Below the pieces are notes generated by a model. That model was not told the origin of the DNA, searched no databases, and was given only the letters and a program-made list of their open reading frames with translations. The position numbers and the translations under genes were made by a program. A DNA stretch of 55,243 nucleotides, filler included, from Stramenopiles sp. TOSAG23-6 (Eukaryota), in the NCBI GenBank assembly GCA_900128565.1. It is 2 parts of 2 records of this genome, joined end to end, with 100 filler letters (N's around TTAATTAATTAA, not from the genome) between each part and the next. Parts side by side here need not be neighbours in the genome. Positions count along the whole stretch, not along the records: positions 27,680 to 55,243 come from LT635981.1; 1 more part is not named here. One strand, written 5' to 3'. The first letter of the stretch is position 1. Each line of letters opens with the position of its first letter. Shown here piece after piece: positions 1 to 55,243 of the stretch.

Positions 1-99
1 TGTTTTATTTTTTTTTGTATAATTTTTTTTTTTTCGTACGAAATTTTGTACCTAACAAAATTTTTTAGTTTTTTTTTCAAATATTTTTCCAAAATACAT
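1..99 (+). other. Non-canonical intron, family member I0 (5' end truncated by window), probable ...AT 3' end
   Basis: Begins tgttttatttt (= [gta]tgttttatttt of other members). Has ttcgtacgaaattttgtacctaac (33-56) and ends aaatatttttccaaaatacat, like the intron at 33075. The frame G TAT CTG GGA AAG follows. Confidence 0.7.
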
Positions 100-826
100 G
101 TATCTGGGAAAGGCACTTTCAAATAAAGAGCAATGGAGAAAAGCTCTGCTATATGCTGAGCTCGCTGCGCGTAATTTATCAAGTGCTGCTGTACAACTAA
201 TAAACCGCGAGGCATTTGTGACAACTGAAAAAAATGAAAACACAAACCTTGTAAGTTTTCTAAATTGAATTTCGAGTTAATTTTTTTCGAACCAAATTTT
301 GTACCTAACAAATTTCGAATTTGACATTTTTTTCACAATACTTGGTTCTGTTTTCCGAAAGTTTTGTGATAATAGCAAGTTTGGTACTAATGATGAATGT
401 TTTAAAGATCTTTACAAAAGTACTTTAAATAATTCGAATTCGTATTTCGCTAAGGGCAAAGACATGTTCAAAGAACCATACTTTGCACAATATATGCGAA
501 GTGCAGTTGAAGTGTCGTATCATGATTATATCTTACCAATGCTGCCTCAATTAATCACAAAATTAGAAGAGATCAAAGCAACGCAAAGTAGCGACAATGA
601 AGCTAGTTCAAAAACGGCCAAAGCAATTAAAACGCTTCAGGGTACCATTGCTTTTGCCGATTATATCAAACCAAGTTGTAGAGGTAGTAGCGCACCACAA
701 ATTTTAACACGCTTTTTGGGATGTTACGGTGCTCTACGATTTGGAATAGCTCGAGATATCCAAGAAGTCATACAATCGGGAGTTTTTCGTGTCACCAGTC
801 CTAGTAGCCCTAGCCCTAGTCCTTAA
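100..826 (+). CDS. 3' part of a paralog of the giant helical-repeat protein (exons 100-250 and 344-826; 5' part outside window)
   Basis: Joined peptide YLGKALSNKEQWRKALLYAELAARNLSSAAVQLINREAFVTTEKNENTNL|GSVFRKFCDN aligns by eye with YMAMPLANEHSWVQCMRYLELAIFHLTNASFELLDRPKLYETMRDRDPGSMTEILHRICFDN near the C-terminus of ORF 1279-14244. HDYILP also recurs. Confidence 0.75.
251..343 (+). other. Non-canonical intron I1, probable GT...TT (93 nt)
   Basis: AAC CTT|gtaagtttt...ttttgtacctaac...cacaatactt|GGT TCT. Branch A at 308 is 35 nt before the junction and CTTG is repeated at both ends. An in-frame AAG at 361 is a possible canonical alternative. Confidence 0.65.
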
Positions 827-21093: not shown

Positions 21094-24000
21094 ATGGGCG
21101 ATCGTCCGAAATTATCCCAACCAATAAAGGCAAATCACCAGATACAGTTCGGAGCTCTCTCAGACGAAGCTGAGCTTTTCTGTGAATCTACAGGTTATGT
21201 GTCAGGACCTAGTACAGAGCGAAGAAAGTCCCCAAGTTTACGAAAAAGTCCACGGGCTAGTCCTTTGTCAATGAATGGAACCCATACAAGGACACCATCA
21301 CCACATATAGGGAGAAAAAGCCGGACACCCTCCCCAGGAGCTTATGGCTCAAGACGTAAACGTACCGCTCCTATCAGAAGTGCTACCAATTCCACAGGTT
21401 CTGCTTTTGAAAGGAGGCAAAGAACATTAACGAGCCCCTCCCCCCATTCACCTGCTAGATGTGGGACCAATCCTCCTGCATTTGAGAGACGCCAACGAAC
21501 GCTAACAAGTCCATCTTCACATGGAAATTCTCTTGGACAGTGTATGTTGTTCGTATCCCATTGAACCTTTATTTTTTCACATTCTTTTTTTTTTTTTCTC
21601 ACTTTAGATTTTATGAAACATTTTCACTTTATAGCAAGAAAGTCTAGAGCTCGTTCACCTGTCGGACCATTATCACAGTCAAATAGGAGGGACATTCGTG
21701 ATTCAAAATGTCCTCGAGACCCTACATCGTCTACAACTAAAGGAAAGTTGTCATCAAACGGAGCTTCTCATGAGTGGGACAGAAACAATAGCAAATCTTC
21801 GAGGAAAAGAAAGTCATCTTCATCTGACAACAGAAAAGACTTTGCTGCTGCTGTCGCCGCTGCTGCTGATGCTATAGCGCGTCAAGAAGAAGCAGCTCGA
21901 AGAAATTCTAGTTTAACGAAGAAAACGATTCCAGCAATCTCAAATGGAACAAATAAAGTCACAAATATATTGTCTGAAAGTCACACGAGTCCAAATTTAT
22001 CACCCACACCAAAAACTTCAAAAGCATCCTTATCGTGTTCAATCTCTTCTGCGTTTGATAGTTCTGTTCATCAAAATATCAGTGAGGTTGGCGAAGACAC
22101 GAAATCTGATCAAGTTTTGAAGGATAGTGGAAATATTGAATCGGAAGTTTCAAATAGTGGAAATGTAAATAATACTGGAACAAAAAGTAATAAAAATACA
22201 ACAACAACGCAAAGATATGAATCATACGAAGAAAATTATTCAGAACCTGCGACACCTAGAGATTTACAGTTTTTAAATGATAGTTCGTCTCTTTTGGGAA
22301 TGTTTCGCTCCCAAAATCGTAATAGGGTAAATAATCATAATAATACTTCAAGTACATCAGCACCAAATAGATCATTACTTCCATCAAATCTTTCCGAGCA
22401 AAAAAATAATTCAACACAATTGTCTCAAATTTCAATGAAAAGTAAAGCAACACCTCAGGGCTCATCATCTGATGATATAAGTGCAAAATCCTCAAAATCA
22501 TATTTTAAAACATCACCACCTAATTCTTATCTAAAAGCCACAAAATCCTCAAAATTATATTTTAAAACATCATCACCTCCCAATTCTTATCTAAAAGCCA
22601 CAACATCGTCTGGTGTAGTAAGTGTAAACAAAAATGATTCAAAAAATTCAAAAATTCAAAAAGCAATAGTCTCATCAACTGTGAAATGCAGCACCACAAA
22701 TTGCTCTTTAGATGTCTCAATAAATTCAAAATCGGCAAAGCTTCCTAAAGGTTTGAAATCGAACCGTGTTGTTTCTATGGATGGTACGCCCGATATTATC
22801 CAAAATGTCGTCAACAGTAAAATGAATTGTCGGGTAGGACGTCATCTGACACATCATCAAAGCTCTTTGGTAACTTCAAATGGACAGTCGAAAGTTAACC
22901 AAAATACACGTTTATCAGCATCAAGGGGTCGTCCTACATCAGGTGGAGTAGTTCTATCAAAAGTTGTATCAAGAGTTCGTGGTACTGTACCAACAATGAA
23001 AAAGAACTTTGTTAGTGCTATTAGTAGTGCAAGTAGCGCAAGTAGTGCTAGTAGTAGTGCAAGTAGTAGCACAAGCAGTGCAAGTAGTAGCGGCGGGGCT
23101 ACAGTAAATGATAGATCAATTCGCCGGTTCAAAAAACGTTCCTGGGCAGATGTTGCTGCTGGTACCGATAGAACAGACAGAGCTGTTCATACTCTAGTGC
23201 AGAGTACACAAAATTTGTCTATCAATCAATCCAATAATCAAACTGACGCCGCTCCAACTGGTGCGGAAATAAATATTAATAAGCCATGTCGAAACCATGA
23301 AATTGGATCTCGTGGAGGTTTATCTTCAACATTACACAGGAAAGAACCAATGGTTGGTGAAACTGGCGCAACTTCAGAAAATTCTCTCAGTCATGAAAAA
23401 ATTCATACAAAGGATAAATCAACACGAAATCGAAGAAATGGTTCACATACAACATCTCACTCGAACGAATATATCTTGCCACAAGAAGAATTGATAAATA
23501 GAGATGGTCATGTTGAGAAAGAAAATGTTTCGATTGTAACAGAAAAATCGGAATTTCATGCACGTAATAAATCTACACCGCAAAAAAAAAATAATTGTGA
23601 TCAGGAACATGAAATAAAGCCGTGGATAACTTCTAATGGGTCAAATCAATGTCTAAGTAGTGTTTCGAAAATAAAGCAAGGCGAGCTTCGAGATGGTGCA
23701 GTNCCCCCCCCNCCACCTGAAGTCGATACAGCTGCAGGTACAGGTAGTAGCATTAGTAACACGTGCCACAATATGAAGTGTAAGATTCATCATGATAGCA
23801 GTTACACTAAAGATGGTTTAACAAAGTCAAATGAGGTAATTAGTATTGATATGATAGGTAATATTATTTCCCGAGATTCAGAAATGAGTTTTGAAGATAT
23901 TCGTAAATTAGAAAAGATTTTAATGATGAAAAAATCTGAACTTTTAAAAACTACAAAATTAGGTACAAAGTGTGGAAGTGCAACTGATACTTCGGTTGAA

Positions 24001-32468: not shown

Positions 32469-35400
32469 TCATTTTACCTCGTCCGTTTTGATCTTCTCAT
32501 CTGCCAATTTTAAAAGGGCTGCGTTAAGCACGTCACACCATTTGGTGACAGTTCCAGGAACATTTTCCTTCCACTTTGTCAATGCGCCATTTTTATACGT
32601 TATTTCTAAGACCCTCTCTTTATCTTTTTTCTTTATCTGAAGCATGTGCAAGACAGCATATCTACCACGTACTTTTACACGATTATCATCTATCTCTTTA
32701 TAGTACACATACGATCCATCAAACTGGAACGCGCATTTCCTCCAAAACATACCGCGCTTTCGTTTAAATACAGATACTAGAATACAATCTGCATCCTTTG
32801 GTGGGTTCAACATCGCAGCATAATCGTCACTCTTTCTTCCATTCATTGTATATAAATTAGGTGGCGCAGGAGCAGCAACACCTGGTTCAGATGACACTGT
32901 ATCACTCGTATCACTAGTATACTTCGATGTCCCATTTTTTGCTGAAGGACCTAATTTTATATTTGTACGTAATGCATCACACCAGGATTCTGCTTCTTGA
33001 TTGCTTGTGGCATGTAAAACTTTTGTTTCCTTTCCTTTAGAGTTGGACCAAGTGATATAGATTTTATAACCACCATGAATTTTGGAAAAATATTTCAAAA
33101 AAAAAGTCGTTAGGTACAAAATTTACTATAAAAAAATAAATTCGAATTTGAAAAAAAATAAAACATACATGGACTTCTACATTATTAATAGTATGCACAA
33201 CGTATCGGCCTTTTGGAGGTGAATATGGATCTAACGCACAAACTTCATTTTTGTAATAATCAAGAAAACTATTTTTAATTCCCATGACAAAGTAATACTT
33301 TGTCCACTTTCGACGATGTCTTTTTTTTAAATATCCTTTCTTTGGTACTGTACCTTCTGGGATCGCATTCATAGCATTCATTGCAGAGCAAGATTTTTTA
33401 CGAACTAATGAATCTGTTGCCGTTAATTCTGTATTTCCAATCCACTTCATTGGAACTTCGGTAGTATTATTTGAAGTTTCTTGTTCGTAATTAAAATATG
33501 GTATCCATTCAAGCTTTAGTCGAATTGTTCCTTTTGTTTTCTTCTTATACCCACGTGACAATTGGCGCCAAAAATCGTGAGTATCATGGGGAGGAATATT
33601 GTTCAAAGGGATTTCACATGAACCTAGGAAATCATATCTACTATCAGCATTTGTGAGAACTTCATCATAATCAAATACATCAACTTTGAGAGTTGCATTT
33701 GCCAAATCTCTAATAAGAAATTCAGTATCTTCATTCCATTCAGGTTTTAGACTATCCCAAATGACACGTGTAGTATATGTAGCTTTTGAATCATTCCCAG
33801 TAATCGACATTACAACAAAAGCATCTGATTTAGAAATTGTGTCAGCATTATGCAAATCATTCGCTTGTACAATAGTAACTTTCAGTAAACCATCAACATC
33901 GGATGTGATTTCATCGTCATGTTTTGCATTTACAGGAGCAGAGCCACTAAAATCAATATCATATGTATTCGGCCAAACAATCATACCAACAAGAGTTTCA
34001 TGTAATATGCTTTGAATATATTCTTTGACAAGAGGTAATTCAGTAAAACAACTCGTTCTTGCAGTTAAAAAGGAAATATCAAAATCAATTTCCGGAGCGG
34101 CCATAAACCCTAAAGCAACTGCACCAAAACCAGGCATTACAGTATCACGTTTACCAAACTTAATTCGTAATATTCCTTTCATACTTATACCAGAAACGCC
34201 AAACTTCAGAGTTACCAGATCTCCAGGAGTATCAAGAGCAAAAGTAATTTCCATGCCATCGTGTGAAATCCAATCAAAATCTACATCAAGGATTGGATCT
34301 GGATGCTCGTGAGCTTCACATTGATTCTGTGAAAAACTTTTCAATCCGCCAAAATAAAATGGAACTCGACCAAAATCACACATTTCAAGTCGCAATGTTC
34401 CTAGAAAACTCGGAAGACTTTTGTTAATATTTGCAGATTCAATTCCACTTCGCACGGAATCGTTGAGACCATACCGTATAAATGGCCATAATTGACGTAC
34501 GACATTATTCAGCCAATCACAATGCTCCCAATCCGCATATTTTACGTACATTGGTAAGTGTTGCCAAAATTGTTCAACCTCCTCTCTGTTTTTTAAAGTT
34601 TGACTCAGATCAAAAATACTATCCGCCAACAACAATGGTTTCTGTTCACTGTTATGTATAAAGTGACCATCTCGAATACACCAATCATTCGTGAGTCCTA
34701 AATACAACAACAAAAAGGAAAAAAGAAGAGGCCACGCAAGGGACATATTCATGTATCCAAAGACTGAGGAGCATACATAAAATAGAACAGAATATCCAAA
34801 TTTAGGCTGATACGTCCTCACACTCGACGCTTCTCGAATGTGTGTACATTTCAACACTATTACAGGGAGACAACTTAGCAAAGTCAGGCATACATAACAT
34901 ACATTAGGAGGCAATGAAAATCCAGGCATGAAGCTATATTCATTCAGAAAGTTATATTTGGATGAATTAAATGAGCATTTGAGGACTTTACCTAAAAAAT
35001 AGAAAGGCAATGTGCTAAATGAAAAACTATGGTCAAGTATCACAGGCTTCAATTTCTCAATAACAGTAGCATGATCAAAGCTCTTGTTACTTTTTAGCTC
35101 ATTATTCAGTAACTTGTGTTGAATACTGCTTGGAGCCGATTGTACCTCTATTTTGTACGAAATATTCCTTTGTTTACTCATACCTAATATAGAAGTTTGT
35201 CTTGTATTATCAAATGATAATTCTATTACACCATCACAAGAATGATAATTTAGCCAAGTTCCATGACATTGTTTCAAAGAATCAGAGGTGACAATGTATT
35301 GTGAAAAAAAAAATACTTAAAAAAATCGTTAGGTATGAAATTTCGTATGAAAAAAAAAAAATTAAATTAGAAATTCATATAAAACGTACATATATAACGG

Positions 35401-36581
35401 CTTCACTGTAATATATTTAGACTGAGAAGTATTAGGTCTAAATGTAATTTTAAAATATATACTTTTCCCATTCAGTTCGAAAAAAGAATAATTCATACGT
35501 TTCCCAGTTGGAATTTTCACTTCAGTGGTTGAAGTTTCACCTGCATTGATAATCAAATTATGGTCTTCTTTGACTTCTGAATATGCAAAATGCTCGGCAT
35601 TTGGATCGTCTAGGATACTATCAATTTTCCATCCGCCTACCCAGCCACGATTATTTACATTCACAGGATGAACAGATTGTAATAATGAAGCTAAAACTCG
35701 TCTGGAATGATATAGTATGAAAAATATTTCAAATTTGATATTTGTTAACATTGAATTATCTATGAAAAAAAAAATTTGAAAAAATGTAAACCCTAACCCT
35801 AATGAAAACATACATGAAGTGAGTAGGCAAAAACAAATTCTTTTGTAGAATAATTATGCCAACATATTACAACATTACCATCAGCTTTAACTTGTAACCA
35901 ATCAAAATGTGGAGGTTGCTCAGCGGATAAAGTACACTTTGGTTTTATTTTGGTTTCTTTTGAATGCTGTGAAAACACGACGCCATTCATTTTGTTTTTA
36001 TCTTCACTTACCGATTTGAACTTAACTGAAAGGTGACAATAATATTGTTTAGCAAACGTTCGGAAATAAATCACATCACCCTTTTTAACGATTATTGTCT
36101 CTCTGTGACGAGTATGCTTCACAAGCTTACAATCTGGGTTTTTTTTAATGCGTGTTCCTATAGTTTTGGAGTCGGATGCTACTTTATCATTAAATATATC
36201 ACAGTGGTCAGTCAACTCAATTTCTTCTTTCAGCTCTGCATTTTCTAATACCGCAGTTTCTACTGGGAAAACACACTGTGTACAAAGCTTGATGATATCT
36301 TCCCACCTTTGATATTGTTCTTCATTCTTACAACCAAGTCTGAAGTTTTTTTTGTTGTCAAGCGTTTTTGCAACTATTTCAATTATACTTTTATCAGAGG
36401 ATATTGCCTTATCTAGTACTCGGACAGAAGAGAGATCAAATGCCTTTATAATTTCAAATTTTTCTTCATCTTTGAATAAACTTAAGTGGAAGCCGTATAC
36501 AGCACAATACACCTTTTTCCAAGCACCAACACCTGCACTGTCATCGTAATACTTCAACCAGCCAGAATGATGTTTTTCCAT
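32469..36581 (-). CDS. 1271-aa PH - GOLD-like - GOLD-like - TM - SMP - C2 - PH - PH protein, extended-synaptotagmin-like (exons 36581-35814, 35706-35390, 35293-33169, 33074-32469)
   Basis: Four ORF fragments join into one frame (768+317+2125+606 = 3816 nt) with GT...AT introns. SMP motif DWEHCDWLNNVVRQLWP, C2 motif GLLKVTIVQANDLHNAD...SDAFV, GOLD-like GVIELSFDNT, and PH domains ending in W-containing helices. Confidence 0.85.
33075..33168 (-). other. Non-canonical intron I2, GT...AT (94 nt)
   Basis: GTC CAT|gtatgtttt...ttttgtacctaac...ccaaaattcat|GGT GGT TAT. It splits a PH domain, the branch A (33110) is 35 nt from the junction, and no AG lies between them. Confidence 0.85.
35294..35389 (-). 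other. Non-canonical intron I3, GT...AT (96 nt)
   Basis: TAT AT|gtacgtttt...tttcatacctaac...cacaatacat|T GTC ACC. Branch A (35329) is 35 nt from the junction. The internal AAG would add 22 nt and frameshift. Confidence 0.82.
35707..35813 (-). other. Non-canonical intron I4, GT...AT (107 nt, or 104 nt if it ends at 35710)
   Basis: CTT CAT|gtatgtttt...tgttaac...ctatatcat|TCC AGA. The next three AGs downstream are all out of phase. Contains TTAGGGTTAGGG. Confidence 0.78.
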
Positions 36582-36892
36582 TTTGGTCAGCGGTATCTAT
36601 TATAACAATAAAAACTTGTTCGTTTTACCTTATATACCTTATATACAATTCTTGAGAAATACGACAAAATTAAGTTGTATCCAATAAAGTATACTTGATT
36701 GCTTTTAGTGAATAATAATCAATTGATAGATGTTATCCAATTCAAAGTGAATTCGTCGTCTTCCTTCCTTCCTTCGTGTGTTGTTGTTGAGCTATCGAAT
36801 CTTTTTTGAAACGCATAACAAAAAAGATATTTTTCGTGTTTTCTGCAGAAATTTCTTTCACCGGAGAGAAAACAAAAAAAAAAAAAATTCTT

Positions 36893-36913
36893 TTAGGTAC
36901 GAAATTTGGTACG
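36893..36913 (-). promoter_or_regulatory. Intergenic copy of the intron-family core motif (cgtaccaaatttcgtacctaa)
   Basis: Lies between the divergent PH/SMP and HMG genes. Similar copies at 20909-20934 (-) and 1026-1050 (+). Function unknown. Confidence 0.45.
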
Positions 36914-42270: not shown

Positions 42271-42839
42271 GTTTGATTACATTTGATGTCTCAATTTCCT
42301 TACCATCAGTGAAAACTAACTTTCTTGATAAGTTTGACATCCCTATTATACATGATTTTTTTGGAAGTTTATCTTGATGTATCATTCAAATCATTATGTT
42401 TGGCAACAAATTGGAGACCTCTTTATTTTTGTTCAAGGGCAATTTTACACTGACATTAATGTTTTTGTCATGTAAGTCCAGAGAAACAAACACTTTTCTT
42501 TTCTTGCCAATGGTTTGCTCCCCATTCCTAGGCCACTAGTTGGTGCCTCTTGAAAAGGATTCACAATATCAGGATTTAAGTGCAGGTCACATCTATCCTT
42601 ATGTGTAGCTTTAGTCAGATTTGTCAATTGCATACAAGCAATCAGCACCTGCCATGCCAATTCATCCAAACTAAGAGGCTTGGAATCTAATGAACACCAC
42701 TGTTGACTAAATCTTCTGCTGAGTGTTTTTGGTGTAATTTTTTTCTGTGTCACACTTTGTCCTTTATTTTTGGAGGACTTTGATTGCAAGTTCTTTAGAT
42801 GTAGATGTATTATCAAAGGCATTCAATGTAGCTGCTGCA

Positions 42840-43315
42840 GCTGCAGCTGGTAGGCTTAGATAATTCATTTGACCAATAGGTTAACTTCTTACCCTGAAAG
42901 CCAAAAAAACAATACAACAACTTCATTGAATATTTGACCTGCTGTCAAATCTTCAATTGTTTTGATTTTTTTTTGTTTTTTAGGGTTAGGGTTATATATT
43001 ATTTAAATTTTCAGCATCTGCAGCAGGTAACATTAGATAATTCATTGCAAATATCTAGAAAACTAAATTTATTCAATGTTAACTTCTTACCATACTTTTC
43101 ATTATTTTCAGCAATTCTGTTTAGATGTTGCTTTTTGTATAAGCATAAATTTGATTCTGCTGCAGCTGGTAATGTTAAATAATTCATTGTTAACTTCTTT
43201 CTGTGAAAGCCAAAAAACAATGCAACAACTTCATCAAATATTTGACCCACTGTCAAATCTTCCATTGTTTCGATTTTTTTTCCATTTTTTAGGGTTAGTG
43301 TTTGGGTTATATATA
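42840..43315. repeat. ~160-bp dispersed direct repeat (42840-42999 and 43159-43315; partial copy ~43013-43092) ending in TTAGGG-like units
   Basis: gctgcagctggta...gaaagccaaaaaacaat...ctgtcaaatcttc...ttttagggttag is shared. Confidence 0.85.
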
Positions 43316-44468
43316 TGCCAGGTGTATATAGTAGCTACTCATAGCTATAATTATAATGTTGTGTGTAATATTTTGGCAAAGCTTTCAGGTTATCCCAACA
43401 AGTTAATCATATTGCATACTATAGAATGTAAAACTTGAAGACAGTTTGAAGTCTTTTAATTCTTTTGCATCCTGTGCTTTTGCAGCAGGAGTCAATATAT
43501 CAAGTTGTGGTGGCACTCCACCTTCAATTACAATTCCAAAGTTAAAAAATCCTTGTTCAGTTAATGGCAATGTTGGTTTCAGTGCTGTCCACTGTGCATA
43601 CATATTTCTCCATTTAAGACAAGTCCAATTCTCCCATTTTTTAATGTACTTCTGGAAATAATCTGGTGTGTCTCCAAATTTATCCATTTTAACATTTGTT
43701 TTGATTTCTGAAATTAAGGATGAAGTGTTTAATGGCTGCAGTAGTATACTTGGCATATGTCTCATTGGGAAGTGCTTTTACTAACTTCACTAGGTTACCA
43801 AATTCATTCATCTGCTGTTTGTCAACTGCTATTGAAACAAACTGAGTTATTGTTTGTTAGTCAACTGCTATGAGCAGCAGAATCAACAGGCATACCTTCA
43901 ATTGAATATGCCCTTCTCCATTGATCTCCAGAACCAAACTTAATAGGAAACTCATCCATTGCAGATTTTTTTTCTAGAGAGTGTTTGATGTATTCCTCTT
44001 TTAAGGATATCCGCATATCATGTATTTGTGGCTGATTTTGATCTGCTCTTGAAACACACTTAGTTATTGTTGGTTATCATTACACAGCTGCCATAAATGT
44101 CACTGAAATGTCACTGAAATGTCACATTTCAATTCAATTTGCAACAACACCAAACTATACAGGAGTATCCATAGTGGTTACTACCTACCATTGTGGTAAG
44201 CATGATGCCATTGTGGCATCAGTGTATATATCATGAATGATGAAAGTTGTATTGTGTACTTTTTTTTCTGCAGAGAGTATTGCTAGAGTGAGAGACTCTA
44301 AGTAGAGTAAGCTGATGTAAACACATTTATTTGCTACTATTGACTTTTTTTTTGAGAACATCAAGAACAGGTTTGTACAAAAAAAATTTAATGAAACCGT
44401 TTCGTTACTTATTATTTTTGTAGTCTAGTACGAAACAAAAGTGTCAAAATCTTTATTCTTTTAATAAA

Positions 44469-47400: not shown

Positions 47401-48860
47401 AAGATTGGAGATTATCACCAGAAGCAGTTCATGGAAGACCTGGACAAGACGAAAATCTTGCGCTACAAGATGTTGCTGGTACATATTCTGCAGTTGACTC
47501 TAGTGAAGAAGATGGAAACTGGTCTGTATTTTCTTACGGGCTGGCAATATCCCCCTCAGGTGAAAAAACAAAAGTTCGTAGAGCTAGTCGTGATCAACTT
47601 GTTCTTGACGGTGGTGGGGGCGTATTAAAACTTACATTGGGAAGACGAAATGTAGTCACGTCATTCAGGTGGTCCTCGAACGATGTTGTATATGAACACA
47701 CATCTAAAACTCCGGCTGCTATAAAATTGAAACATCCTTCATATATAGTAGAACCTGAGGAAGGCGAACCAATTTTATTAGATGAAGACTCTTTACCTCC
47801 AATACCAACACTGAAAGAAGCTAAGTTATTGGAGGAAGAATTATCCTCTATTTGTGATGTCTTTATCAACGATGCTTTATCTATCTGCGGTGGGACATCT
47901 ATCTCGTCTGTGATTCAACCTCAATCAAAAGGTCCTTGTGTGGCTGGTCATAGTATGGTACTTGAATTGAAACATGTTGCTGCACTTTTGGAGAAACCAC
48001 GCGCACCACTGGTAGTTGTAGCTGGTGGTGAAGCCACACAGCAACGCGTACATATGGTTCGTGGATTACTTGCATCGGCATCGCATGTACTTTTTGGTGG
48101 ACAATTTGGTCTTGCGCTTCTCTTAGCCCAAAACTCGAGTAATGATGGATGTATAGGTGCAACAAAAGTAGATCATTCGAAGTCACATATTGCAATGAAG
48201 CATCTTTTGCTTGATGCTCGGCGACGTGGTGTAAGATTGTTGCTTCCTACCGATTTTGTTACTGGAGATGTTGAGACTAAATCATCTAAGGAAGCTATTG
48301 TATATGAAGGCGACACCGATGAAGTTTCATTCAGTGATATCGATGAAAATAGCTTTATATTAGATATTGGTCCCAACACAACAGAATTATATACATCTAT
48401 TATTCAATCAGCAGAATGTGTAGTTATTGTTGGAGGTTTAGGTGAATTACAGTATGATGATGCTGGCCGATGTGGAACAACTGCAATACTTGACGCAGTA
48501 TCTACTCTTACAGCTGCTGGGAAACCAACACTTGTAGCTGGGTGGGATATGGTAAATTTTGTGATAGATACAGGTTTGGAGGAGTCTTTGTCCTGTGTTA
48601 GTGATGCAGGATCTGCTATGATTAAACTGCTATCTGGACAATCTTTACCAGGTTTGACAGCAATACCAGAAATTTTAGAAGGCGAAGAATCAAATGCATT
48701 TGATTTCGCGACATCTGCACAGGATGGAATTGACGTGGGTGATGAAATTGGAGTAGAAACACAGGAAGAAGAAAATAATGTTAATGAAGGAGAAGATAAT
48801 GATAATGGGAAAGAAAATAATGTGAATGAAGAAGAAGAAAATGTTGATGTGAAAGAATAA
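44469..48860 (+). CDS. MYCBP-associated-protein-like (flagellar) region fused to a degenerate phosphoglycerate kinase domain
   Basis: VENTGSCALYYEW...GVILPGQ...AGIFRDSWKFITNP is MYCBPAP-like. PGK-fold motifs GKNVLIRTDLNV, LLENIQF, DVFINDA, LLLPTDFV and ILDIGPNT follow an acidic linker. Confidence 0.8.
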   Translation: MTEPPPQENNLDVPPGDNPEVDAPSEAIGENNVSQQENGQELNVTTENVEEEEEDKVEVVSQDNETNQKDETLKVVTEPVVKPRRKFSVRSPRKKDEDIDKTNRRKFVVVRSARKGEQVNTNQTSPSKGIRRNKNSGEVVSHTILGKPKHFENSIRLQNGDEDTTSVDILVSSIRNRAVGVNLMKNRLTKARSALKEDDPLVLLKREHKSRSRRLSSLKKIADESNEKEQKNHQRKLANMLPHHRLAHDRESRTLQMWKERQKDWTKWKGDTAKRVGKDVADLVVSRAEDYREMLEEYALVHKSMPTAEKQGSDFWMMSLRGDGTRYVPVGNIFSGLFCPIKDDNANVPIIIRRPGMKQSSASWRDSHQLQRRKRQVAKKMQTLRPHAVEQSHADGLIVSGCNLFDWALNSTSTFYENAAVEQASTRESSLYVDLDGDGIDDVTGETIPSDYLEGPQLCLRIIGENGKVCSQHSTSDPKSLLNIILETTINESVVSNIQVENTGSCALYYEWGKDYENNAESNLIPNEQEHVFSCAMRKGVILPGQTQDTAIVFATTKAGIFRDSWKFITNPNANSLSKVKFSFTGIAKDIDKSEIHKRLGEVVNKRISQSSSNQMDDSLLSRVQTPKSLDIVGSEKSILHRDIFEAHNPGLHYLPRYYAKFEAYALKLFSILRVQRKHAEWDGSVDTLRDLLNTLEKNKKIDAAYIEMMRSDVETLVLCASKRPADLPSFYPMKQKIAEIDDTDVAEDGVEDEEEDEDDVEDEAEAEDDAEGKADDAVEGEADDVEVKDEDNVESGENEEKEAECEVDGEDAVASENDKNDENQNTDTIAPNITDEIQQKQFSPEVTIVSHGSILKKRTINQLTPDEVNGKNVLIRTDLNVKFEDDDGIAPEAQGKISRACRSVKTALSLGAARVLLLTHLDHLGKAVSAACLKDPLEDELEDDVTFISNSEDIVSSLVDDDEGXIYLLENIQFRPEDWRLSPEAVHGRPGQDENLALQDVAGTYSAVDSSEEDGNWSVFSYGLAISPSGEKTKVRRASRDQLVLDGGGGVLKLTLGRRNVVTSFRWSSNDVVYEHTSKTPAAIKLKHPSYIVEPEEGEPILLDEDSLPPIPTLKEAKLLEEELSSICDVFINDALSICGGTSISSVIQPQSKGPCVAGHSMVLELKHVAALLEKPRAPLVVVAGGEATQQRVHMVRGLLASASHVLFGGQFGLALLLAQNSSNDGCIGATKVDHSKSHIAMKHLLLDARRRGVRLLLPTDFVTGDVETKSSKEAIVYEGDTDEVSFSDIDENSFILDIGPNTTELYTSIIQSAECVVIVGGLGELQYDDAGRCGTTAILDAVSTLTAAGKPTLVAGWDMVNFVIDTGLEESLSCVSDAGSAMIKLLSGQSLPGLTAIPEILEGEESNAFDFATSAQDGIDVGDEIGVETQEEENNVNEGEDNDNGKENNVNEEEENVDVKE

Positions 48861-48958
48861 TAAACACGCATCATTATTATGTATATATTAGTAAATATAA
48901 CTTATTAAGTTTGTTTGTTTAGTTACAAAGAGTTTTATTGATGATATCGCATCACATT

Positions 48959-51118
48959 TTAAACCACTGCAGGACTCAATAAGACAAATGGCAGTGGTGA
49001 TTCTTTATTGAATTTAAAGCCCAAATCAGACATCCATCGAGGTGTATTTCCATCGCAACCAATTTCAAGAATTGAAAGTAAGGGACTTGATAATATTTGC
49101 GGTCGCGATTTTGAGGATTCATGGAAGTCATTAACATCAGTATTGCTAGTATCAATACACATCTTATTGGGTTTACCATTTTCATTTACCCGATGTTTTG
49201 CTTTTGCAATGATGTCGTCTTTTAGCATAAAACGTTCTTCTACAGAAAATTCACCTCTTTTAAAACTTTTAGAAACGTGTATTAGCTGTTTTGCAAGAGG
49301 AGTAAGCTGAGAAAAGTTTCGTGATAAAGGACTCATCATTTTGCGTTTCGATGCTGCACGTCTTGGAGAGACACTGATCCCTTCACCAATTATACATAAT
49401 GTATCACTCGTATTTTGTTGTCTCCCAGAAATTTCGTCTGATAATTGTTGAACAAGTCCCACTTTAGCATTTTGCCTCTCTATATCACTCATCCAATGTC
49501 CTCCAGAATATCTACGCGATACTTCTATTAGTCGAGATGCAGTTGGACTCAAAAATTCGGCGTTGAAATGATTTTTGACATCATTAATTTGTCCTTTATG
49601 ATGTGTACTATTATGTGTACTGACTCTAAGTGAAGCGTAAGGATTTACATCTATTATTTGAAGATCATCAAAGTTATTAAAGCCAACAGCATTATGAAAA
49701 GGATTAACAAAACTGTGCTTTGACTTACCTTTCTTTGAAGTTATTCTGGATTGTAGTTTTCGATTCGCTTTCAATATTTTCTTTTTGGCCCTTAATTCAG
49801 CTTTTTTCTTTTTTTTTAATTTAGCTAATTCTATTTTTTTTCGCTTCAAATCTTCTTTGGCTTGTAACTGTAGCGCAATAGCCTTTTGAACAGCTGTATC
49901 TTTATCGTCTTTTGTCATTTGAAACATTGCAAACATTTGCTGTCTTTTTACTTCACTTTCAATAAATGAATTTGTAATTTGTAATACATCTGTATCATTA
50001 TGAATATTTTCAATAGTCATTTCATTTTTTTCATGAGGCAAGTCTCTTTTCCAAGCACTGGTATCATTCCTCAAAATAGTGTGGTCTCGATTCGTTGCCA
50101 TCTCTCCATTGATATCAAATACACAATCAATCTTTTGCTCTAATATACCTGATTTATATGATTTATTTCCATTTGTAGATATATGGGCAGTATCATGTCT
50201 TGCTGCATTGCCACGGCGACCTTGTCCAAATGGAAGAGCAGCATGTACTGCTGCCGAGTTAAGGGTTCTACTTGATACTGCCGCAGCCATCCGAGGAGTG
50301 ATTGATGCCTTTGAGTTACAATGGTGTGGCAGTCTTGAATTGTAAGATCTCGGCGGAACTCTAGGAAGTTCTTCTCCGTTGCCACCGAGAGAGCCATATA
50401 TAGCTCGAAGAAGATTATTTTCACGCGGTGAAATTGATAACGGTACTGGAGTGCCTGGTGCTTCAGGTTGTGTATCTTTGTTTGAACAAACTTTCGTTGA
50501 AACATATAATTCCTGTAAACGTCCTGCTACATTATTATCATTTGATTCTTCCTCATGAGCTGTAGCCTTTTCATCGCGAAGCATTTTAGACCACTGACGG
50601 TGCATTAAAGAATTCCATTGGTTTTTAACTGTATTTTCAGACCTCCCTGGAATTTGCTTTGCTATTTTTGCCCAGCTATTACCAAATTCGTGCTGTGCTG
50701 ACACAAGAATTTGCAACTCCTTTGCTGACCACGGGCCTTTCTTTAGGGTAGGGTCTAAATGATTTAACCATCGCTCCCGGCATTGTTTTCCTTTTCGCCC
50801 AGGCACGTATTCAGCTATATTTGACCATTTTTTACTTCCGAAACGCCCAACAAGTAAAATGAGCAAAGCATCTTCATCTTCACTCCAAGGACCTTTTACT
50901 GGTTGATTCATTAATGCAGAATTCCATCTATACCTACAGTCCTTTGCAGTGCGTTTATATTCAGTCATTTCATTTGCGATTTTCGACCAATTAATAGCCC
51001 CCGTCTCGATTGTACATACTGGATTATTAGAACGTGCATATTGAATAATTTCACCACGTAACACTTCATCTTCTTCCTCCGTAAAGTCGCGATATCCTCT
51101 TGGTAAAGCATCTTTCAT
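48959..51118 (-). CDS. Myb transcription factor with three Myb repeats
   Basis: NWSKIA...KDCRYRW; KGPWSEDED...KQCRERWLNHLDP; KGPWSAKE...GRSENTVKNQWN. Confidence 0.93.
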   Translation of the reverse strand: MKDALPRGYRDFTEEEDEVLRGEIIQYARSNNPVCTIETGAINWSKIANEMTEYKRTAKDCRYRWNSALMNQPVKGPWSEDEDALLILLVGRFGSKKWSNIAEYVPGRKGKQCRERWLNHLDPTLKKGPWSAKELQILVSAQHEFGNSWAKIAKQIPGRSENTVKNQWNSLMHRQWSKMLRDEKATAHEEESNDNNVAGRLQELYVSTKVCSNKDTQPEAPGTPVPLSISPRENNLLRAIYGSLGGNGEELPRVPPRSYNSRLPHHCNSKASITPRMAAAVSSRTLNSAAVHAALPFGQGRRGNAARHDTAHISTNGNKSYKSGILEQKIDCVFDINGEMATNRDHTILRNDTSAWKRDLPHEKNEMTIENIHNDTDVLQITNSFIESEVKRQQMFAMFQMTKDDKDTAVQKAIALQLQAKEDLKRKKIELAKLKKKKKAELRAKKKILKANRKLQSRITSKKGKSKHSFVNPFHNAVGFNNFDDLQIIDVNPYASLRVSTHNSTHHKGQINDVKNHFNAEFLSPTASRLIEVSRRYSGGHWMSDIERQNAKVGLVQQLSDEISGRQQNTSDTLCIIGEGISVSPRRAASKRKMMSPLSRNFSQLTPLAKQLIHVSKSFKRGEFSVEERFMLKDDIIAKAKHRVNENGKPNKMCIDTSNTDVNDFHESSKSRPQILSSPLLSILEIGCDGNTPRWMSDLGFKFNKESPLPFVLLSPAVV

Positions 51119-51360
51119 GGTAACTTTATTTGAAAAACGTATGATATTACTACGAAGATTCTTCTAAGATCTTGCGTCATCTTGCGTTTGACCAGCGGTT
51201 ACTACATTTTTGAAAAACACAAACCTGCTCGACGATGACGGAGTAAAATTATTATTTTTCATTGCGATTGCATTCGTATTCTATTATGAATATCTTGTAG
51301 TAGTTCAAGACAAGTTCTAAAAATATAGCTAATTTAGAGTGATATATTTAATATTTTAGC

Positions 51361-52536
51361 ATGAAAATTAAATTGCTATTTGCATGTCTCTCTATTTTAT
51401 GTCAACGTATAATATCAAAGTCAAACTCAACAATTTTGGACGCTTCTATAGATAAAGTGAAGGGGGAAAATACTTTTTTTAATAAGTGGAACAACCTTGA
51501 AGAATTACAAACCTTTTATGATTCTTTGGCACGTCGTTCTCCGGATATTCTCAAGAAGCAAGAAATTGGTAAAACAGTAAACGGGAATAAAATATTTGGA
51601 TATCGATTAAACTACGATAAAGACGATAATGTAGTACCAAAACCCAAAATTTATATTCAAGGTCTTGCACACGCGCGAGAGTGGATTACTGGTAGTGCTG
51701 TTGCATATATTATAGCAAGTTTTGTGGAAGCGGCAAAGGTTGTTAAGGAAAACGCAAAAATTGAAATGGGAAATTCAACCACTATACCAACTGAGGAAGT
51801 GAGTGATCACATGAGAAGAATTATTGAACTAATTCCCAAAATTGAGATAGTAGCTGTTCCTATAGTAAACCCTGATGGCTATTCATTCTCATGGACTCCG
51901 AAGCACAGAAGATGGAGAAAAAATAGAAATGGTTCTGGAGTTGACCTAAACCGCAATTATGATGTTCATTATAATCAAGAAACTAATAAAGAAATGCTTC
52001 AAAGACTGAAAGATAAAAACTCAGATAATTTCTCTGGTAATTCCGCCTTTTCTGAAGCAGAGACAAAAGCTATTCGCGATTTTATCACAAGTATAGCTCA
52101 AAATACAAAAGAAGAAAAAAATTCGTTTATTTTAGGCATAGATTTTCATAGCTATGGTTCCAAAGTACTTCGCCCTTATGGTTTTCAGAGTGCAGATAAA
52201 GGCACTCCATCTGATGAAAAAAAGTTAAAAATCCTTGGGGATAAAGCTGCTGAGGCCATGACAAAAATTCATGATCATAAATATGAGTCAGAACATGCTG
52301 CAGAAAATATTAGATTTGAAGGCACTGGTGGTGCTGATGATTGGTTGATTGAAAAAGCAGGTATGGATTCTTTTACGATTGAACTTCGGGGCACTTCTTT
52401 TGAACTTCCGACCGAAAGCATAAAGCTTGCAGTTGATGAAGCTCTTGAAGGATTACTTACAATGGCAAAACTAGCGCTTAGTATACAATCAGTTGGTATG
52501 AACAGAAATATGTACCATACATCTAGTGATAAATGA
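51361..52536 (+). CDS. Secreted M14 zinc carboxypeptidase
   Basis: Signal peptide; HAREW, NPDGY, RWRKNR, GVDLNRNY, DFHSYG and FTIELR. Confidence 0.95.
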   Translation: MKIKLLFACLSILCQRIISKSNSTILDASIDKVKGENTFFNKWNNLEELQTFYDSLARRSPDILKKQEIGKTVNGNKIFGYRLNYDKDDNVVPKPKIYIQGLAHAREWITGSAVAYIIASFVEAAKVVKENAKIEMGNSTTIPTEEVSDHMRRIIELIPKIEIVAVPIVNPDGYSFSWTPKHRRWRKNRNGSGVDLNRNYDVHYNQETNKEMLQRLKDKNSDNFSGNSAFSEAETKAIRDFITSIAQNTKEEKNSFILGIDFHSYGSKVLRPYGFQSADKGTPSDEKKLKILGDKAAEAMTKIHDHKYESEHAAENIRFEGTGGADDWLIEKAGMDSFTIELRGTSFELPTESIKLAVDEALEGLLTMAKLALSIQSVGMNRNMYHTSSDK

Positions 52537-52693
52537 TGGAAATATTTCATTTCAGGGATAGCAATTAGCACGTAAATAAACTAAATTATAAATAGGGAAA
52601 AATAATTTGTTTAAAACTTGAATTTATTTGTTTCCCTTGAGTAATAACAGCCTAGCAATGTACAACGCTTCAACGGCTTCATTAATCACTTTA

Positions 52694-53383
52694 TCAATCA
52701 CTCTGCGGAAACGCTTCAACGGCTTGATTAATCACTTCATTCCTCACTTTGTGGAAATCAAGTCTACTAGCCTCACGTTTCAAATAATCGTAACTTTCGC
52801 GGGAAAGCTTACTAGCCTCTTTTAAAATATTGATATACTTAAAAGTGAGATGCTCTATATCCCCAATGTGATCCTCATATAAAAATTGCGAAAACGGGTC
52901 AGAACCAAACAATTTTGAAATTTCCGGTCGCCTTGTACGAAAAAAATGAAATCGTACTTTTATAAATTCAAAACGTTCACGAAGATCCTGCATTTTTCCC
53001 TGTAAATTCTTCACTTGCCTATCTAATAAAGGTTCTACTTTCAGAGTGGGAGACTCATCCTTCAGACTGCTAGACTCATCCGTTGTAGAATATAGTTCAC
53101 GAAGTTCTCTGTCTTCTATGGTTCCTTCGGAAGACTCATAAGATAAAGGTTGTGTGGGAAGTTTGTAACGAGCGTTTTGGATACGTTCTCGAGTTTCTTG
53201 CGGTGTTTCAAAAGGACCTGTGCTAGTATATTGAAGTTCACTTCTCCCACTAGTAGTCGGATGATGATGTTGTTCGTCTAGAGGTTTTGGAGCTTTTTGT
53301 AGTCGTGGGATAGCTCCAGTAGAAATTTGAGCTATCAGAAAGAAAGCTAAAGCAATATAGCTGTAATGTGAGAATCTCTTCAT
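52694..53383 (-). CDS. Hypothetical secreted protein
   Basis: Signal-like N-terminus MKRFSHYSYIALAFFLIAQISTG; helical C-terminal half; no family recognised. Confidence 0.65.
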   Translation of the reverse strand: MKRFSHYSYIALAFFLIAQISTGAIPRLQKAPKPLDEQHHHPTTSGRSELQYTSTGPFETPQETRERIQNARYKLPTQPLSYESSEGTIEDRELRELYSTTDESSSLKDESPTLKVEPLLDRQVKNLQGKMQDLRERFEFIKVRFHFFRTRRPEISKLFGSDPFSQFLYEDHIGDIEHLTFKYINILKEASKLSRESYDYLKREASRLDFHKVRNEVINQAVEAFPQSD

Positions 53384-53752
53384 TTCTGTAAGAAGTTGCA
53401 AGTCTCAACAAGCTTCAAATAATTCACCAAGAAGTACCGTACTCTTCTTTTTAAAGTTTGTTTTTTGAGTTCCTTGCACTGACTTTCAATGACTTTCAAC
53501 TGTCCTGTTTGTTGGATTTTTCGTGTTTGTTTGAAATCGATGGATTGACACGGTCATATCACGCGATGACACACGATGACACATAAGAAAGTCTTCTTCT
53601 TCTCCACAAGTTGCGACTCATTGTCGCATTTTTGATTGGTTTATACGACCACTGTGTTGAGTGGATCGTATATTTCTATTTACGTGGATACATTGCCTGG
53701 TATAGTTATAATACTGTACGCGTAGTATTTGGATTGTAGGTGTAGTACAATC

Positions 53753-55151
53753 ATGTTTGAGAAGAGTCTACATGACCTCGTCAAGGGTATACGTTCCCAC
53801 AAACGCGACGTAAGTGGTTATATCGACAAGTGTTTGTCGGAAATTAAAGTTGAGTTGCGTACAACAAATCCAAAGCTCAAAGTTCAGGCTATTCAAAAGT
53901 TGGTATATTTACAAGTTCTCGGGTATAGTGCGAATTGGGCTTCTTTTCATGTAGTTGAGGTTATGGCCCAGCCCTTATTTAAGCATAAGCGTATGGGATA
54001 TCTCGCAGCGGAGCAATGTTTCACCCCTCAAACAGATGTAATTCTACTGTGTACAAACTTACTTAAGAATCAGTTACATGCTTCAAATCAATATGAAATA
54101 GGATTGGCAATAAGTTGCCTGTCAAATATTGTCACTAAAGATTTGGCGAGAGATCTTCTAGGAGATATAGTTGCCATGTTAAGTAGTACTAGACCATATA
54201 TACGAAAGAAGGCCGTGCTAGTATTATATAAACTGTATCTTGCATACCCACAAGCCCTACGTCTATCATTCGAAAATTTAAAACAGAAACTTGAGGACGT
54301 CGATCCTTCAGTTGTTTCCTCTGCCGTTAATGTAATTTGCGAGTTATCGCGTAAAAACCCTAAAAATTATTTATCTTTGGCGCCACAGTTTTTCAAGTTA
54401 CTATTAACATCTACAAATAATTGGATGCTTATTAAAGTTGTGAAACTACTTGGTGAGTTGGTGTCAGAAGAGCCTCGATTAGCTCGGAAAATTTTACAGC
54501 CACTAGCACGTTTGATCAGAGCCACACCGGCAAAGTCTTTAATGTACGTTCTTATCGTGAAATTTCCACCTAAATTTTATTTTTCATAGAAAATTTTGTA
54601 CCTAACAAATTTCGAACGTAAAATATTTTGTAAAAATCATGTACGAATGTGTTCAAACTGTGACAACTTCCCTTAAATATACAGTACGTCAAGATGGAAA
54701 ACAAGCAAAAAATGTTGCTGAAATTGCTTCTCTTTGTATGGAAAAGTTGAAGGATTTCATTGAAGATCCTGATCAAAACTTGAAATATTTAGGTTTGATT
54801 GGTTTAGCCAATTTGATGCGCTCCCATCCAAAATTAGTATCAAAGCATAAAAGTCTTGTCCTTGAATGTCTTGATGATGGTGACGTCACTATTCGTCTTA
54901 GAGCTTTAGAATTAGTGACTGGTATTGTAACAAAACGAAGTCTTCAAAATATTGTTGACAAATTAATGCAACATTTGAGCTGTGCTGAAGGTCAATATCG
55001 TGATGAATTGATTAGTAAGATTGTGTTTATTTGTAGTCGAAATAAGTATTCATTTGTTTTAGATTTTGCGTGGTATATTACGATTCTTATAGATTTGGCG
55101 TATACAAAAGGAATGAAGCAAGGTGATCTTATCGCGGAACAATTAATTGAT
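53753..55151 (+). CDS. AP3D1: AP-3 complex subunit delta, 5' part (exons 53753-54543 and 54641-55151; continues beyond window)
   Basis: MFEKSLHDLVKGIR, NNWMLIKVVKL, EPRLARK, AKSLM|YECVQTV, DQNLKYLGL and DFAWYI. Confidence 0.95.
54544..54640 (+). other. Non-canonical intron I5, GT...AT (97 nt)
   Basis: TCT TTA AT|gtacgtt...aattttgtacctaac...taaaaatcat|G TAC GAA TGT restores the conserved SLxYEC motif. Branch A (54605) is 35 nt from the junction; the first downstream AG is at 54684. Confidence 0.9.
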
Positions 55152-55243
55152 GTATGTTTTATTTTTTTGAAAATTTGAATTTTGTTTTCGTACGAAATTT
55201 TGTACCTAACAATTTTTTTTAGATTTTTTTTTGAAATATTTTT
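55152..55243 (+). other. Non-canonical intron I6 (3' end truncated by window)
   Basis: ATT GAT|gtatgttttatt...ttcgtacgaaattttgtacctaac...gaaatattttt. Using the AG at 55222 would give ATT TTT TTT TGA, a stop. Confidence 0.8.

What the first reader, a model, noticed from the sequence alone, without database searches (positions are those of the whole stretch)
54544..54640. A family of AG-less introns (GT...AT): clearest case in the conserved AP-3 delta gene
Seen: AP3D1 is interrupted by a 97-nt AT-rich insert with an in-frame stop, a GTACGT donor and a TACCTAAC branch-like motif. The conserved AP-3 delta motif (SLLYEC type) is restored only as TTA AT|G TAC GAA TGT. ATGTACG is repeated at both ends so the junction can slide, but no register gives an AG acceptor, and the first AG after the branch (54684) would delete YECVQTV. 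Six related inserts occur in the window (1-99, 251-343, 33075-33168, 35294-35389, 35707-35813, 55152-end), on both contigs and both strands. Established: spliceosomal introns almost always end in AG, or AC for some U12 introns; mass non-canonical introns are known from few lineages, such as euglenids and the tunicate Fritillaria. Inference: this organism removes an abundant intron class with an AG-independent 3' splice site. This is the best candidate for an undescribed system here.
Basis: partly seen in the sequence, partly recalled or inferred. Interest (0 to 1): 0.96.

Follow-up and report, generated by a model that had tools for sequence, protein, structure and literature searches.

The report
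Intron family that lacks AG ends
A marine protist's genes are interrupted by many copies of one short, related intron that starts like a normal intron but ends in AT instead of the near-universal AG, and RNA data show that at least one copy is cut out exactly there.

Summary
AP-3 delta is split by a 97-nt insert (54544-54640). Human AP-3 delta and two closer relatives run across the junction without a gap. The junction slides over ATGTACG, and none of the 8 registers ends in AG.

The insert is one of seven copies of one family (nhmmer E<=4e-14). All seven lie in the sense direction inside genes. Each has a GTAYGT donor, a T-rich body and an extended TACCTAAC box. The 3' end lies 34-43 nt further on and reads CAT (5 of 6) or CTT (1 of 6).

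Removing three copies restores a 1276-aa frame, which aligns gap-free to a homolog at all three junctions. For copy 35294-35389, contigs of two polyA RNA runs join 35293 to 35390. The DNA run laid beside them does not.

No conserved RNA fold was found. The last two intron bases equal the last two exon bases in 5 of 5 complete copies.

Best reading: an introner-like, U2-type intron family whose 3' site is not AG. It resembles the transposon-derived non-canonical introns of Fritillaria and Amoebophrya but differs in its signals. The AP-3 delta junction itself rests on homology only, not on RNA.

The parts
54544..54640 (+). Family copy in AP-3 delta, 97 nt. Donor GTACGT at 54544-54549, in-frame TAG at 54587-54589, box TACCTAAC at 54599-54606, 3' end CAT at 54638-54640.
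   Evidence: The junction is fixed by gap-free homology. There is no RNA evidence for this copy.
54542..54548 (+). Left copy of the 7-nt direct repeat ATGTACG. The right copy is at 54639-54645.
   Evidence: Slide of 2 to the left and 5 to the right.
53753..54543 (+). AP-3 delta exon upstream of the insert (Adaptin_N domain).
   Evidence: 9c58_D, E 6.6e-98. (PF01602, E 2.2e-67).
54641..55151 (+). AP-3 delta exon downstream of the insert. It is followed by the next family copy.
   Evidence: E 6.8e-49; the spliced frame is open, 434 aa with 0 stops.
35294..35389 (-). Family copy of 96 nt in the PH/SMP/C2 gene, GTACGT...CAT. This is the copy shown to be removed in RNA.
   Evidence: joint 35293->35390 in X8 (depth 7.1, side 80) and X9 (depth 2.2, side 84), 0 in DNA run X3; no gap at the junction against P0121.
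33075..33168 (-). Family copy of 94 nt in the same gene, GTATGT...CAT.
35707..35813 (-). Family copy of 107 nt in the same gene, GTATGT...CAT. Its box is TGTTAAC. It holds (TTAGGG)2. A CCAG 5 nt past its end is out of frame.
251..343 (+). Family copy of 93 nt, GTAAGT...CTT, where the exon ends in TT. The junction rests on reading frame only. An in-frame AG at +18 is not excluded.
   Evidence: No homologs were found.
1..99 (+). Family copy cut at its 5' end by the contig start. Its 3' end is CAT at 97-99.
55152..55243 (+). Family copy cut at its 3' end by the contig end. Donor GTATGT, following the exon end AT.
36881..36913 (-). Partial copy of the family core, upstream of the start codon of the PH/SMP/C2 gene.
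   Evidence: (E 0.0015).
21542..21634 (+). Candidate intron outside the family, GTATGT...TATAG, 93 nt. In-frame alternatives end at 21607 (66 nt, also AG) or 21643 (102 nt). Unverified.
   Evidence: The family profile does not hit it.

Best explanation
The inserts are copies of one introner-like intron family of 93-107 nt in an uncultured marine stramenopile.

Each copy carries its own major-spliceosome-type signals. These are a GTAYGT donor, T-rich tracts and an extended branch-type box (AAATTTYRTACCTAAC). They sit in the sense direction inside coding exons.

The intron is removed from the pre-mRNA from the G of the donor up to a position 34-37 nt past the box (43 nt in one cut copy). The sequence there is C-A/T-T, not YAG. 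The last two intron bases repeat the two exon bases that precede the donor: AT in four complete copies and TT in one.

I read this as a 2-nt target duplication made on insertion, as described for Fritillaria introns. The spliceosome must then cut behind whatever those two bases are. It would be guided by position relative to the branch box and T tract rather than by AG.

Shown: the family relationship, the exact junctions (homology for 4 copies, RNA for 1), and the absence of AG in any register.

Inferred: that the major spliceosome does the cutting, that the box is the branch site, that the repeat is a target duplication, and that distance sets the 3' cut.
For: Family. 7 of 7 inserts match one profile at E 1e-21 to 4e-14, with mean column identity 63%. 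All 7 are in the sense direction of their host ORFs.

Signals. 6 of 6 known 5' ends read GTAAGT, GTATGT or GTACGT. 6 of 7 copies hold TACCTAAC and 1 holds TGTTAAC. Of 6 known 3' ends, 5 read CAT, 1 reads CTT, and 0 end in AG.

Junctions. AP-3 delta is gap-free against 9c58_D and against P0002 and P0084. Removing 35813-35707, 35389-35294 and 33168-33075 gives one 1276-aa ORF. That ORF has no gap at any of the 3 junctions against P0121, which is 42% identical.

RNA. The joint 35293->35390 appears in 2 of 3 RNA runs laid and in 0 of 1 DNA run. An AAG 12 nt past the box of that copy is skipped.

Direct repeats. Their lengths are 4, 4, 2, 4 and 7 nt (sum 21), against a null mean of 0.77. P(sum>=21) is about 1e-5. 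The exon's last 2 nt equal the intron's last 2 nt in 5 of 5 complete copies, against 0.078 per site at random. This includes the one TT/TT case.

Distance. The 3' end lies 34 nt past the box in 4 of 5 complete copies and 37 nt in 1.

Multi-copy. Dozens of contigs in an independent DNA run and in RNA runs match only the core 54572-54613 and diverge on both sides. 38 DNA contigs stop matching exactly at 35294, the last intron base (table 7).
Against: Only one copy has RNA support. That support is two assembled contigs from one study. The tool marks the joint 'between: not known', and contigs cannot show strand.

The TT/TT case (251-343) carries the duplication argument, but its junction rests on reading frame alone. 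An in-frame AG at +18 exists there, and no homolog was found.

No terminal inverted repeat beyond 3-6 nt is visible, and the repeat length is not constant. A classical DNA transposon is therefore not shown.

The constant 34 nt may only mean that the copies are young, not that a ruler exists.

Branch use, snRNAs and splicing factors could not be examined. No genome is held and the window holds no Rfam family.

RNA of an intron-less strain would give the same joint.
Confidence: 0.7

Rival explanations
1. AT-AC-type or minor-spliceosome reading. The true cut lies 2 nt to the left, so the introns begin AT (TT once) and end AC or TC. Or they are U12-type introns, which tolerate unusual 3' dinucleotides.
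For: The 2-nt slide allows this register in every complete copy. In it the last base is C in 6 of 6 copies and the first is A in 5 of 6. The box resembles the U12 branch consensus TCCTTAAC, which I recall from memory. From memory also, U12-type splicing places its 3' cut by distance and accepts ends such as GT-AT. One search lists GT-AT only as a term in a splice-site survey.
Against: The donor in that register would read ATGTAYGT. That is neither the U12 box (RTATCCTT, recalled) nor the U2-type AT-AC donor. The GTAYGT block is the best-conserved 5' feature. The box lies 34-43 nt from the 3' end, not the roughly 10-20 nt of U12 introns. The ends are AC in only 3 of 6 copies and TC in the other 3.
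Confidence: 0.1
2. Not spliceosomal. The elements are excised by another route. One route would be DNA elimination between short direct repeats, as with ciliate eliminated sequences. Another would be an RNA endonuclease and ligase guided by structure, as with euglenid nonconventional introns.
For: Direct repeats of 2-7 nt flank every complete copy, and the 3' ends are non-canonical. RNA contigs alone cannot tell RNA splicing from transcription of already-excised DNA.
Against: The joined form is absent from the DNA run laid (0 contigs). No consensus structure was found: 0 pairs, and z-scores of 0.73, 0.50, -1.62, -0.22 and -1.89. The conserved blocks are exactly a donor hexamer and a CTAAC-type box. 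All 7 copies are in the sense direction, which DNA excision would not need.
Confidence: 0.06
3. Artefact. The explanation would be assembly or amplification errors, decaying pseudogenes, or a systematic base error hiding real CAG acceptors.
For: The window is a draft of two contigs whose outer ends break inside family copies. Table 3 shows only 40 of 95 differences, so a base difference at an acceptor cannot be strictly excluded.
Against: The same 3' end recurs in 6 copies on both strands. Long frames are restored exactly. The genes are conserved and carry no other defects. Independent seawater DNA runs hold 54-85% of the words of this stretch. The RNA joint matches the predicted ends to the base.
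Confidence: 0.03

Closest known systems
Transposon-derived non-canonical introns of the tunicate Fritillaria borealis (Henriet et al. 2019, seen only as described in the review PMC11282704)
   Same: Many recently gained introns with non-AG 3' ends. The 3' end is formed by a copy of the exon bases that precede the intron. Removal is attributed to the major spliceosome.
   Different: There the commonest ends are AG-AC and AG-AT, so the 5' end is non-canonical too, and inverted terminal repeats are reported. Here the donor is a textbook GTAYGT, there is a strong branch-type box, the ends are uniformly G...T, and no clear inverted repeat is seen. The host is a stramenopile, not an animal.
Non-canonical introns and introner elements of the dinoflagellate Amoebophrya (PMC7789003, passages seen)
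   Same: A marine protist. Repeated intron families. Direct repeats of 3-5 nt overlap the exon/intron borders. Non-GT-AG ends are confirmed by RNA.
   Different: Amoebophrya shows no dominant terminal dinucleotides. Its elements have 8-20-nt inverted repeats that form a hairpin joining the intron ends. Here the termini are uniform and no such structure exists.
Introners and introner-like elements with canonical GT-AG ends (Micromonas, Aureococcus, fungi; PMC12130899 and PMC11282704, passages seen)
   Same: Near-identical short introns at unrelated positions in unrelated genes. They carry their own splice signals, are sense-oriented, and are found mostly in aquatic microbes. One splice site may come from the target duplication.
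   Different: Those families splice at AG. The survey in PMC12130899 lists only AG and AC as accepted 3' ends when it curates families.
U12-type (minor) introns with unusual 3' dinucleotides (recalled; not read here)
   Same: The 3' cut tolerates non-AG ends and is set largely by distance from a strongly conserved branch box.
   Different: The donor box and the branch-to-3' distance do not fit (see the membership test).

Membership tests
U2-type GT-AG spliceosomal intron | GT at the 5' end within an extended donor consensus | tested here: met
   6 of 6 known 5' ends read GTAAGT, GTATGT or GTACGT.
U2-type GT-AG spliceosomal intron | Branch-site box (CTAAC type) and pyrimidine-rich tract upstream of the 3' end | tested here: met
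   TACCTAAC in 6 of 7 copies and TGTTAAC in 1, followed by T runs. This is presence of a motif only; use as the branch point was not testable.
U2-type GT-AG spliceosomal intron | AG as the last two intron bases | tested here: not met
   0 of 6 known 3' ends. No register gives AG for 54544-54640 (8 registers) or for 35294-35389 (3 registers, fixed by RNA).
U2-type GT-AG spliceosomal intron | Removed from RNA, present in DNA | tested here: met
   One copy only: joint 35293->35390 in RNA runs X8 and X9, none in DNA run X3.
U12-type (minor) intron | 5' box RTATCCTT (recalled consensus) | tested here: not met
   The copies read GTAYGTTTT, or ATGTAYGT in the other register.
U12-type (minor) intron | Branch box about 10-20 nt from the 3' end (recalled) | tested here: not met
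   34 nt in 4 copies and 37 nt in 1; 43 nt in copy 1-99.
U12-type (minor) intron | Minor snRNAs present in the genome | not testable with these tools
   No genome is held. There are no Rfam matches in the window.
Introner / introner-like element | Many similar copies forming introns at unrelated sites in unrelated genes | tested here: met
   7 copies in at least 3 genes on 2 contigs. Dozens of contigs in other runs carry only the core (table 7).
Introner / introner-like element | Target-site duplication | tested here: inconclusive
   Direct repeats of 2-7 nt, with the shared part being the 2 nt before the donor (5 of 5). The length is not constant and no empty site is available.
Introner / introner-like element | Terminal inverted repeats (DNA-transposon type) | tested here: inconclusive
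   Only ATG...CAT, and up to ATGTAT...ATACAT in some copies, by eye. No formal test was run.
Euglenid nonconventional intron / Amoebophrya introner element | RNA helix bringing the two intron ends together | tested here: not met
   The consensus fold has 0 pairs. Single folds are not better than shuffles, z from 0.73 to -1.89.
Germline-limited eliminated DNA (ciliate type) | Joined form present as DNA | tested here: inconclusive
   No joined contig in the one DNA run laid. Contigs drop rare forms.

The most novel reading that the evidence does not exclude
In this stramenopile lineage the 3' splice-site rule of the major spliceosome itself may have changed or relaxed. On this reading most introns of the genome belong to this family. 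They end in U rather than in AG. The second catalytic step picks its site about 35 nt past the branch point, without the usual pairing between the last intron G and the first intron G. That would make the organism a natural experiment on how the spliceosome selects the 3' site.
Probability: 0.35. Interest if true: 0.9.

Novelty: new variant of a known kind. Interest (0 to 1): 0.78.

Why it matters
The terminal AG is among the most constant signals in eukaryotic gene expression. Here the donor and the branch box look fully conventional and only the 3' end departs from the rule. That isolates 3'-site choice from everything else.

If the reading holds, three things follow.

1. It offers a clean system for asking what the second step of splicing really needs.
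2. It extends transposon-like intron gain with non-canonical ends to heterotrophic marine stramenopiles.
3. Gene models for these abundant ocean grazers that were built with GT-AG-only predictors are probably wrong wherever this family sits. In this window that is 7 of the 8 intron candidates.

Tried and rejected
RNA for the AP-3 delta copy. One search lists no joint across 54544-54640. The flanking exon bin 53828-54494 has next to no RNA cover (depth 1.01, 0 and 0), and 3 joints were not shown. This says nothing either way. The same holds for 35707-35813.

More family copies. All 118 are chance matches in unrelated sequence. A viral-contig scan gave 1 chance match.

Whole genome. None is held, so snRNAs and splicing factors could not be searched. 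Rfam found nothing in the window.

Earlier findings.

Homologs for the gene holding 251-343. None in two searches.

Canonical rescue. My listing of frame-preserving GT/GC/AT...AG/AC pairs was too permissive to discriminate. It served only to show an in-frame AG at +18 for 251-343 and none usable with the strong donor for the others.

End-pairing structure. Rejected.

Low-side joints. The 21-nt-side joints between 35313-36913 and 54572-54583 are repeat cross-matches, as the tool warns. I did not use them.

Run shares and habitat.

Literature. Six searches found no report of AG-less introns in marine stramenopiles. The genome papers I opened (PMC5778133, PMC8237690, PMC5269757; term passages only) say nothing on splice sites. 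Their supplements were closed and may hold splice-site tables.

Full report
WHAT IS THERE

The window is two contigs joined by an N/TTAATTAATTAA spacer at 27581-27679. It is 35% G+C and gene-dense, with very long uninterrupted ORFs of up to 4342 aa. AP-3 delta finds its best relatives among oomycetes and other stramenopiles, at 63-72% identity. Seawater metagenomes and metatranscriptomes hold the sequence. I therefore treat the source as an uncultured marine stramenopile, and go no further than that.

THE AP-3 DELTA INSERT

Two ORFs, 53726-54589 and 54606-55178, lie in different frames. The first runs into a TAG at 54587-54589.
- The upstream exon aligns over all 265 residues with residues 13-277 of human AP-3 delta (9c58_D, E 6.6e-98). 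It ends AKSLMY against AMSLLY.
- The downstream ORF aligns from residue 274 of the same chain (E 6.8e-49), MYECVQTV against LLYECVNTV.
- Two relatives at 72% and 70% identity read AKSLLYECLKT without a gap.

Exactly 97 nt must be removed. Because ATGTACG stands at both ends (54542-54548 and 54639-54645), eight registers give the same mRNA. Their ends are AT..TC, TG..CA, GT..AT, TA..TG, AC..GT, CG..TA, GT..AC and TT..CG, so none is AG. The next AG lies 44 nt further on, inside sequence that aligns to the conserved protein.

A FAMILY, NOT A SINGLE ODDITY

A profile built from that alignment recovers just these seven at E 1e-21 to 4e-14. It also finds one 33-nt fragment of the core upstream of a start codon (36913-36881, E 0.0015).

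The common plan is as follows:
- The exon ends in AT.
- The donor is GTAYGT, followed by TTTATTT.
- Then comes a variable AT-rich stretch and a T run.
- Then TCRTA-GAAATTTTGTACCTAAC.
- Then a T-rich stretch with GAAATATTTTT.
- The intron ends C-A-rich...(A/T)C(A/T)T.

TACCTAAC occurs 9 times against 0.78 expected. Six occurrences lie in the family and three in ordinary coding sequence. All seven copies are in the sense direction of the ORFs they interrupt. Both outer contig ends break inside a copy, as expected of a repeat that stops assemblers.

A scan for donor-like hexamers followed by T-rich sequence finds the six family copies that have a 5' end plus two other sites. One is a possible non-family intron at 21542. 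The other, 37961, lies behind a gene. The family is thus 7 of the 8 intron candidates in 55 kb.

ARE THE JUNCTIONS RIGHT?

Removing 35813-35707, 35389-35294 and 33168-33075 from the minus strand joins four ORFs into one 1276-aa frame that ends at a stop. That protein has PH, SMP and C2 domains. Against its one detectable long homolog (P0121, 42% identity) it has no gap at any of the three junctions. The match is close around two of them (33 and 40 identities in 90 columns) and weaker around the third (24 in 90).

For 35707-35813 a good-looking CCAG lies 5 nt past the predicted end, but using it breaks the frame.

For 251-343 only the reading frame supports the junction. An in-frame AG 18 nt further on cannot be excluded. 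Two searches found no homolog.

RNA EVIDENCE

I laid three metatranscriptome runs and one independent DNA metagenome run on 35152-55151. Contigs of two polyA RNA runs join 35293 to 35390 and skip 96 nt: X8 at depth 7.1 with 80 nt on the shorter side, X9 at depth 2.2 with 84 nt. The ends are AT..AC on the + strand, which is GT..AT on the gene strand. The slide is 2 nt. The DNA run has no such contig. This is the junction predicted from sequence, and none of its three registers (GT..AT, TG..CA, AT..AC) ends in AG. An AAG 12 nt past the box of this copy is passed over.

Caveats:
- These are assembled contigs of one study.
- The tool marks 'between: not known'.
- RNA from a strain lacking the intron would look the same.

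The AP-3 delta copy and 35707-35813 had no usable RNA cover.

The same call shows many contigs in all four runs that match only the core 54572-54613 and diverge on both sides. In X3 there are 10, 18, 12, 21 and 12 contigs at five break points. In addition, 38 DNA contigs stop matching exactly at 35294, the last intron base. The family is therefore multi-copy in independent samples, and its similarity ends where the intron ends. The summed depth over that bin (3602 in X3 against 5-8 in neighbouring bins) is not a copy number.

WHAT MARKS THE 3' END?

Of six known 3' ends, five read CAT and one CTT. C at -3 and T at -1 never vary. The end lies 34 nt past the box in four complete copies, 37 nt in one, and 43 nt in the copy cut by the contig start. 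Earlier CAT triplets in two copies (18 and 27 nt past the box) are not the predicted ends.

The junctions carry direct repeats of 4, 4, 2, 4 and 7 nt. Random site pairs give a mean of 0.77, and a sum of 21 or more about once in 100,000 draws. The shared part is always the two bases before the donor: AT/AT four times and TT/TT once. AT is self-complementary, so it cannot tell identity from pairing. The TT case fits identity, meaning a duplication, and not pairing. It is a single case, however, and its junction is unverified.

No consensus RNA structure exists (0 pairs). Single folds are no better than shuffles. End-joining helices of the euglenid or Amoebophrya kind are therefore excluded.

MECHANISM

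I commit to the following reading. This is an introner-like family that brings its own major-type donor and branch box. It is removed by the spliceosome, and its 3' terminus is the duplicated target dinucleotide rather than AG. The cut is placed by position past the branch box and T tract.

The U12 or AT-AC reading is weaker. The donor in that register fits neither known box, and the branch-to-end distance is too long.

DNA elimination and artefact are unlikely. The reasons are the donor and branch signals, the uniform sense orientation, the restored frames, the independent DNA runs and the RNA/DNA contrast.

Whether ordinary GT-AG introns coexist is open. The one non-family candidate (21542) has in-frame ends at 66, 93 and 102 nt. 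Two of those are AG, and none is verified.

COMPARISON AND NOVELTY

Introners are well known, but curated families end in AG or AC (PMC12130899, methods passage). Two systems come closest:
- Fritillaria: AG-AC and AG-AT ends, a 3' site formed from the exon copy, and inverted repeats (review PMC11282704).
- Amoebophrya: no dominant ends, 3-5-nt direct repeats, and hairpin-forming inverted repeats (PMC7789003).

The present family differs from both. It keeps a textbook donor and branch box, has uniform G...T termini and lacks a fold. Six literature searches found no such report for stramenopiles. Supplements were closed. I class it as a new variant of a known kind.

Noticed in passing
window 21542-21643 (+): Possible intron outside the family, between two same-frame ORFs of an S/R/P-rich protein. 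It has a GTATGT donor. In-frame ends lie at 21607 (TTTAG), 21634 (TATAG) and 21643 (AAAGT, which mirrors the exon end CAGT). It would show whether AG introns coexist with the family.
   Followed up: partly
window 36881-36913 (-): A 33-nt fragment of the family core (..AAATTTCGTACCTAAAAG..) lies about 300 nt upstream of the start codon of the PH/SMP/C2 gene. No donor is visible. It may be a decayed copy or a leader intron.
   Followed up: partly
window 35788-35802, 42975-42992, 43285-43300: Two-unit telomere-type repeats (CCCTAA)2 lie inside the intron 35707-35813. They also lie inside repeated AT-rich units of the poorly coding stretch 41900-43400 on the minus strand.
   Followed up: no
window 44424-48860 (+): One 1478-aa ORF joins a MYCBP-associated-protein domain (E 9e-45) to a phosphoglycerate kinase domain (E 8e-54). 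This looks like a flagellum-linked glycolytic fusion.
   Followed up: no
window 1216-14244 (+): An uninterrupted 4342-aa ORF with no Pfam family. The 1323-aa ORF at 21565-25536 likewise has none.
   Followed up: no
window 37028-37931: The two-HMG-box protein gene (37088-37855) is the best-covered single-copy locus in the polyA RNA runs. Contigs of depth 78-146 end at 37928-37931 with adapter sequence, which suggests a transcript end there.
   Followed up: no
window 35294 (table 7): 38 DNA contigs of run X3 break at the intron's last base. The consensus of what precedes (agreement only 0.38) looks like a family 3' end in the opposite orientation. That hints at tail-to-tail copies or an assembly-graph palindrome.
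   Followed up: no
window 97-106 and 54638-54648: In two copies the exon after the intron itself begins like a donor (GTATC, GTACG). In the first of these, ATACATGTAT at the 3' junction is a perfect palindrome.
   Followed up: no
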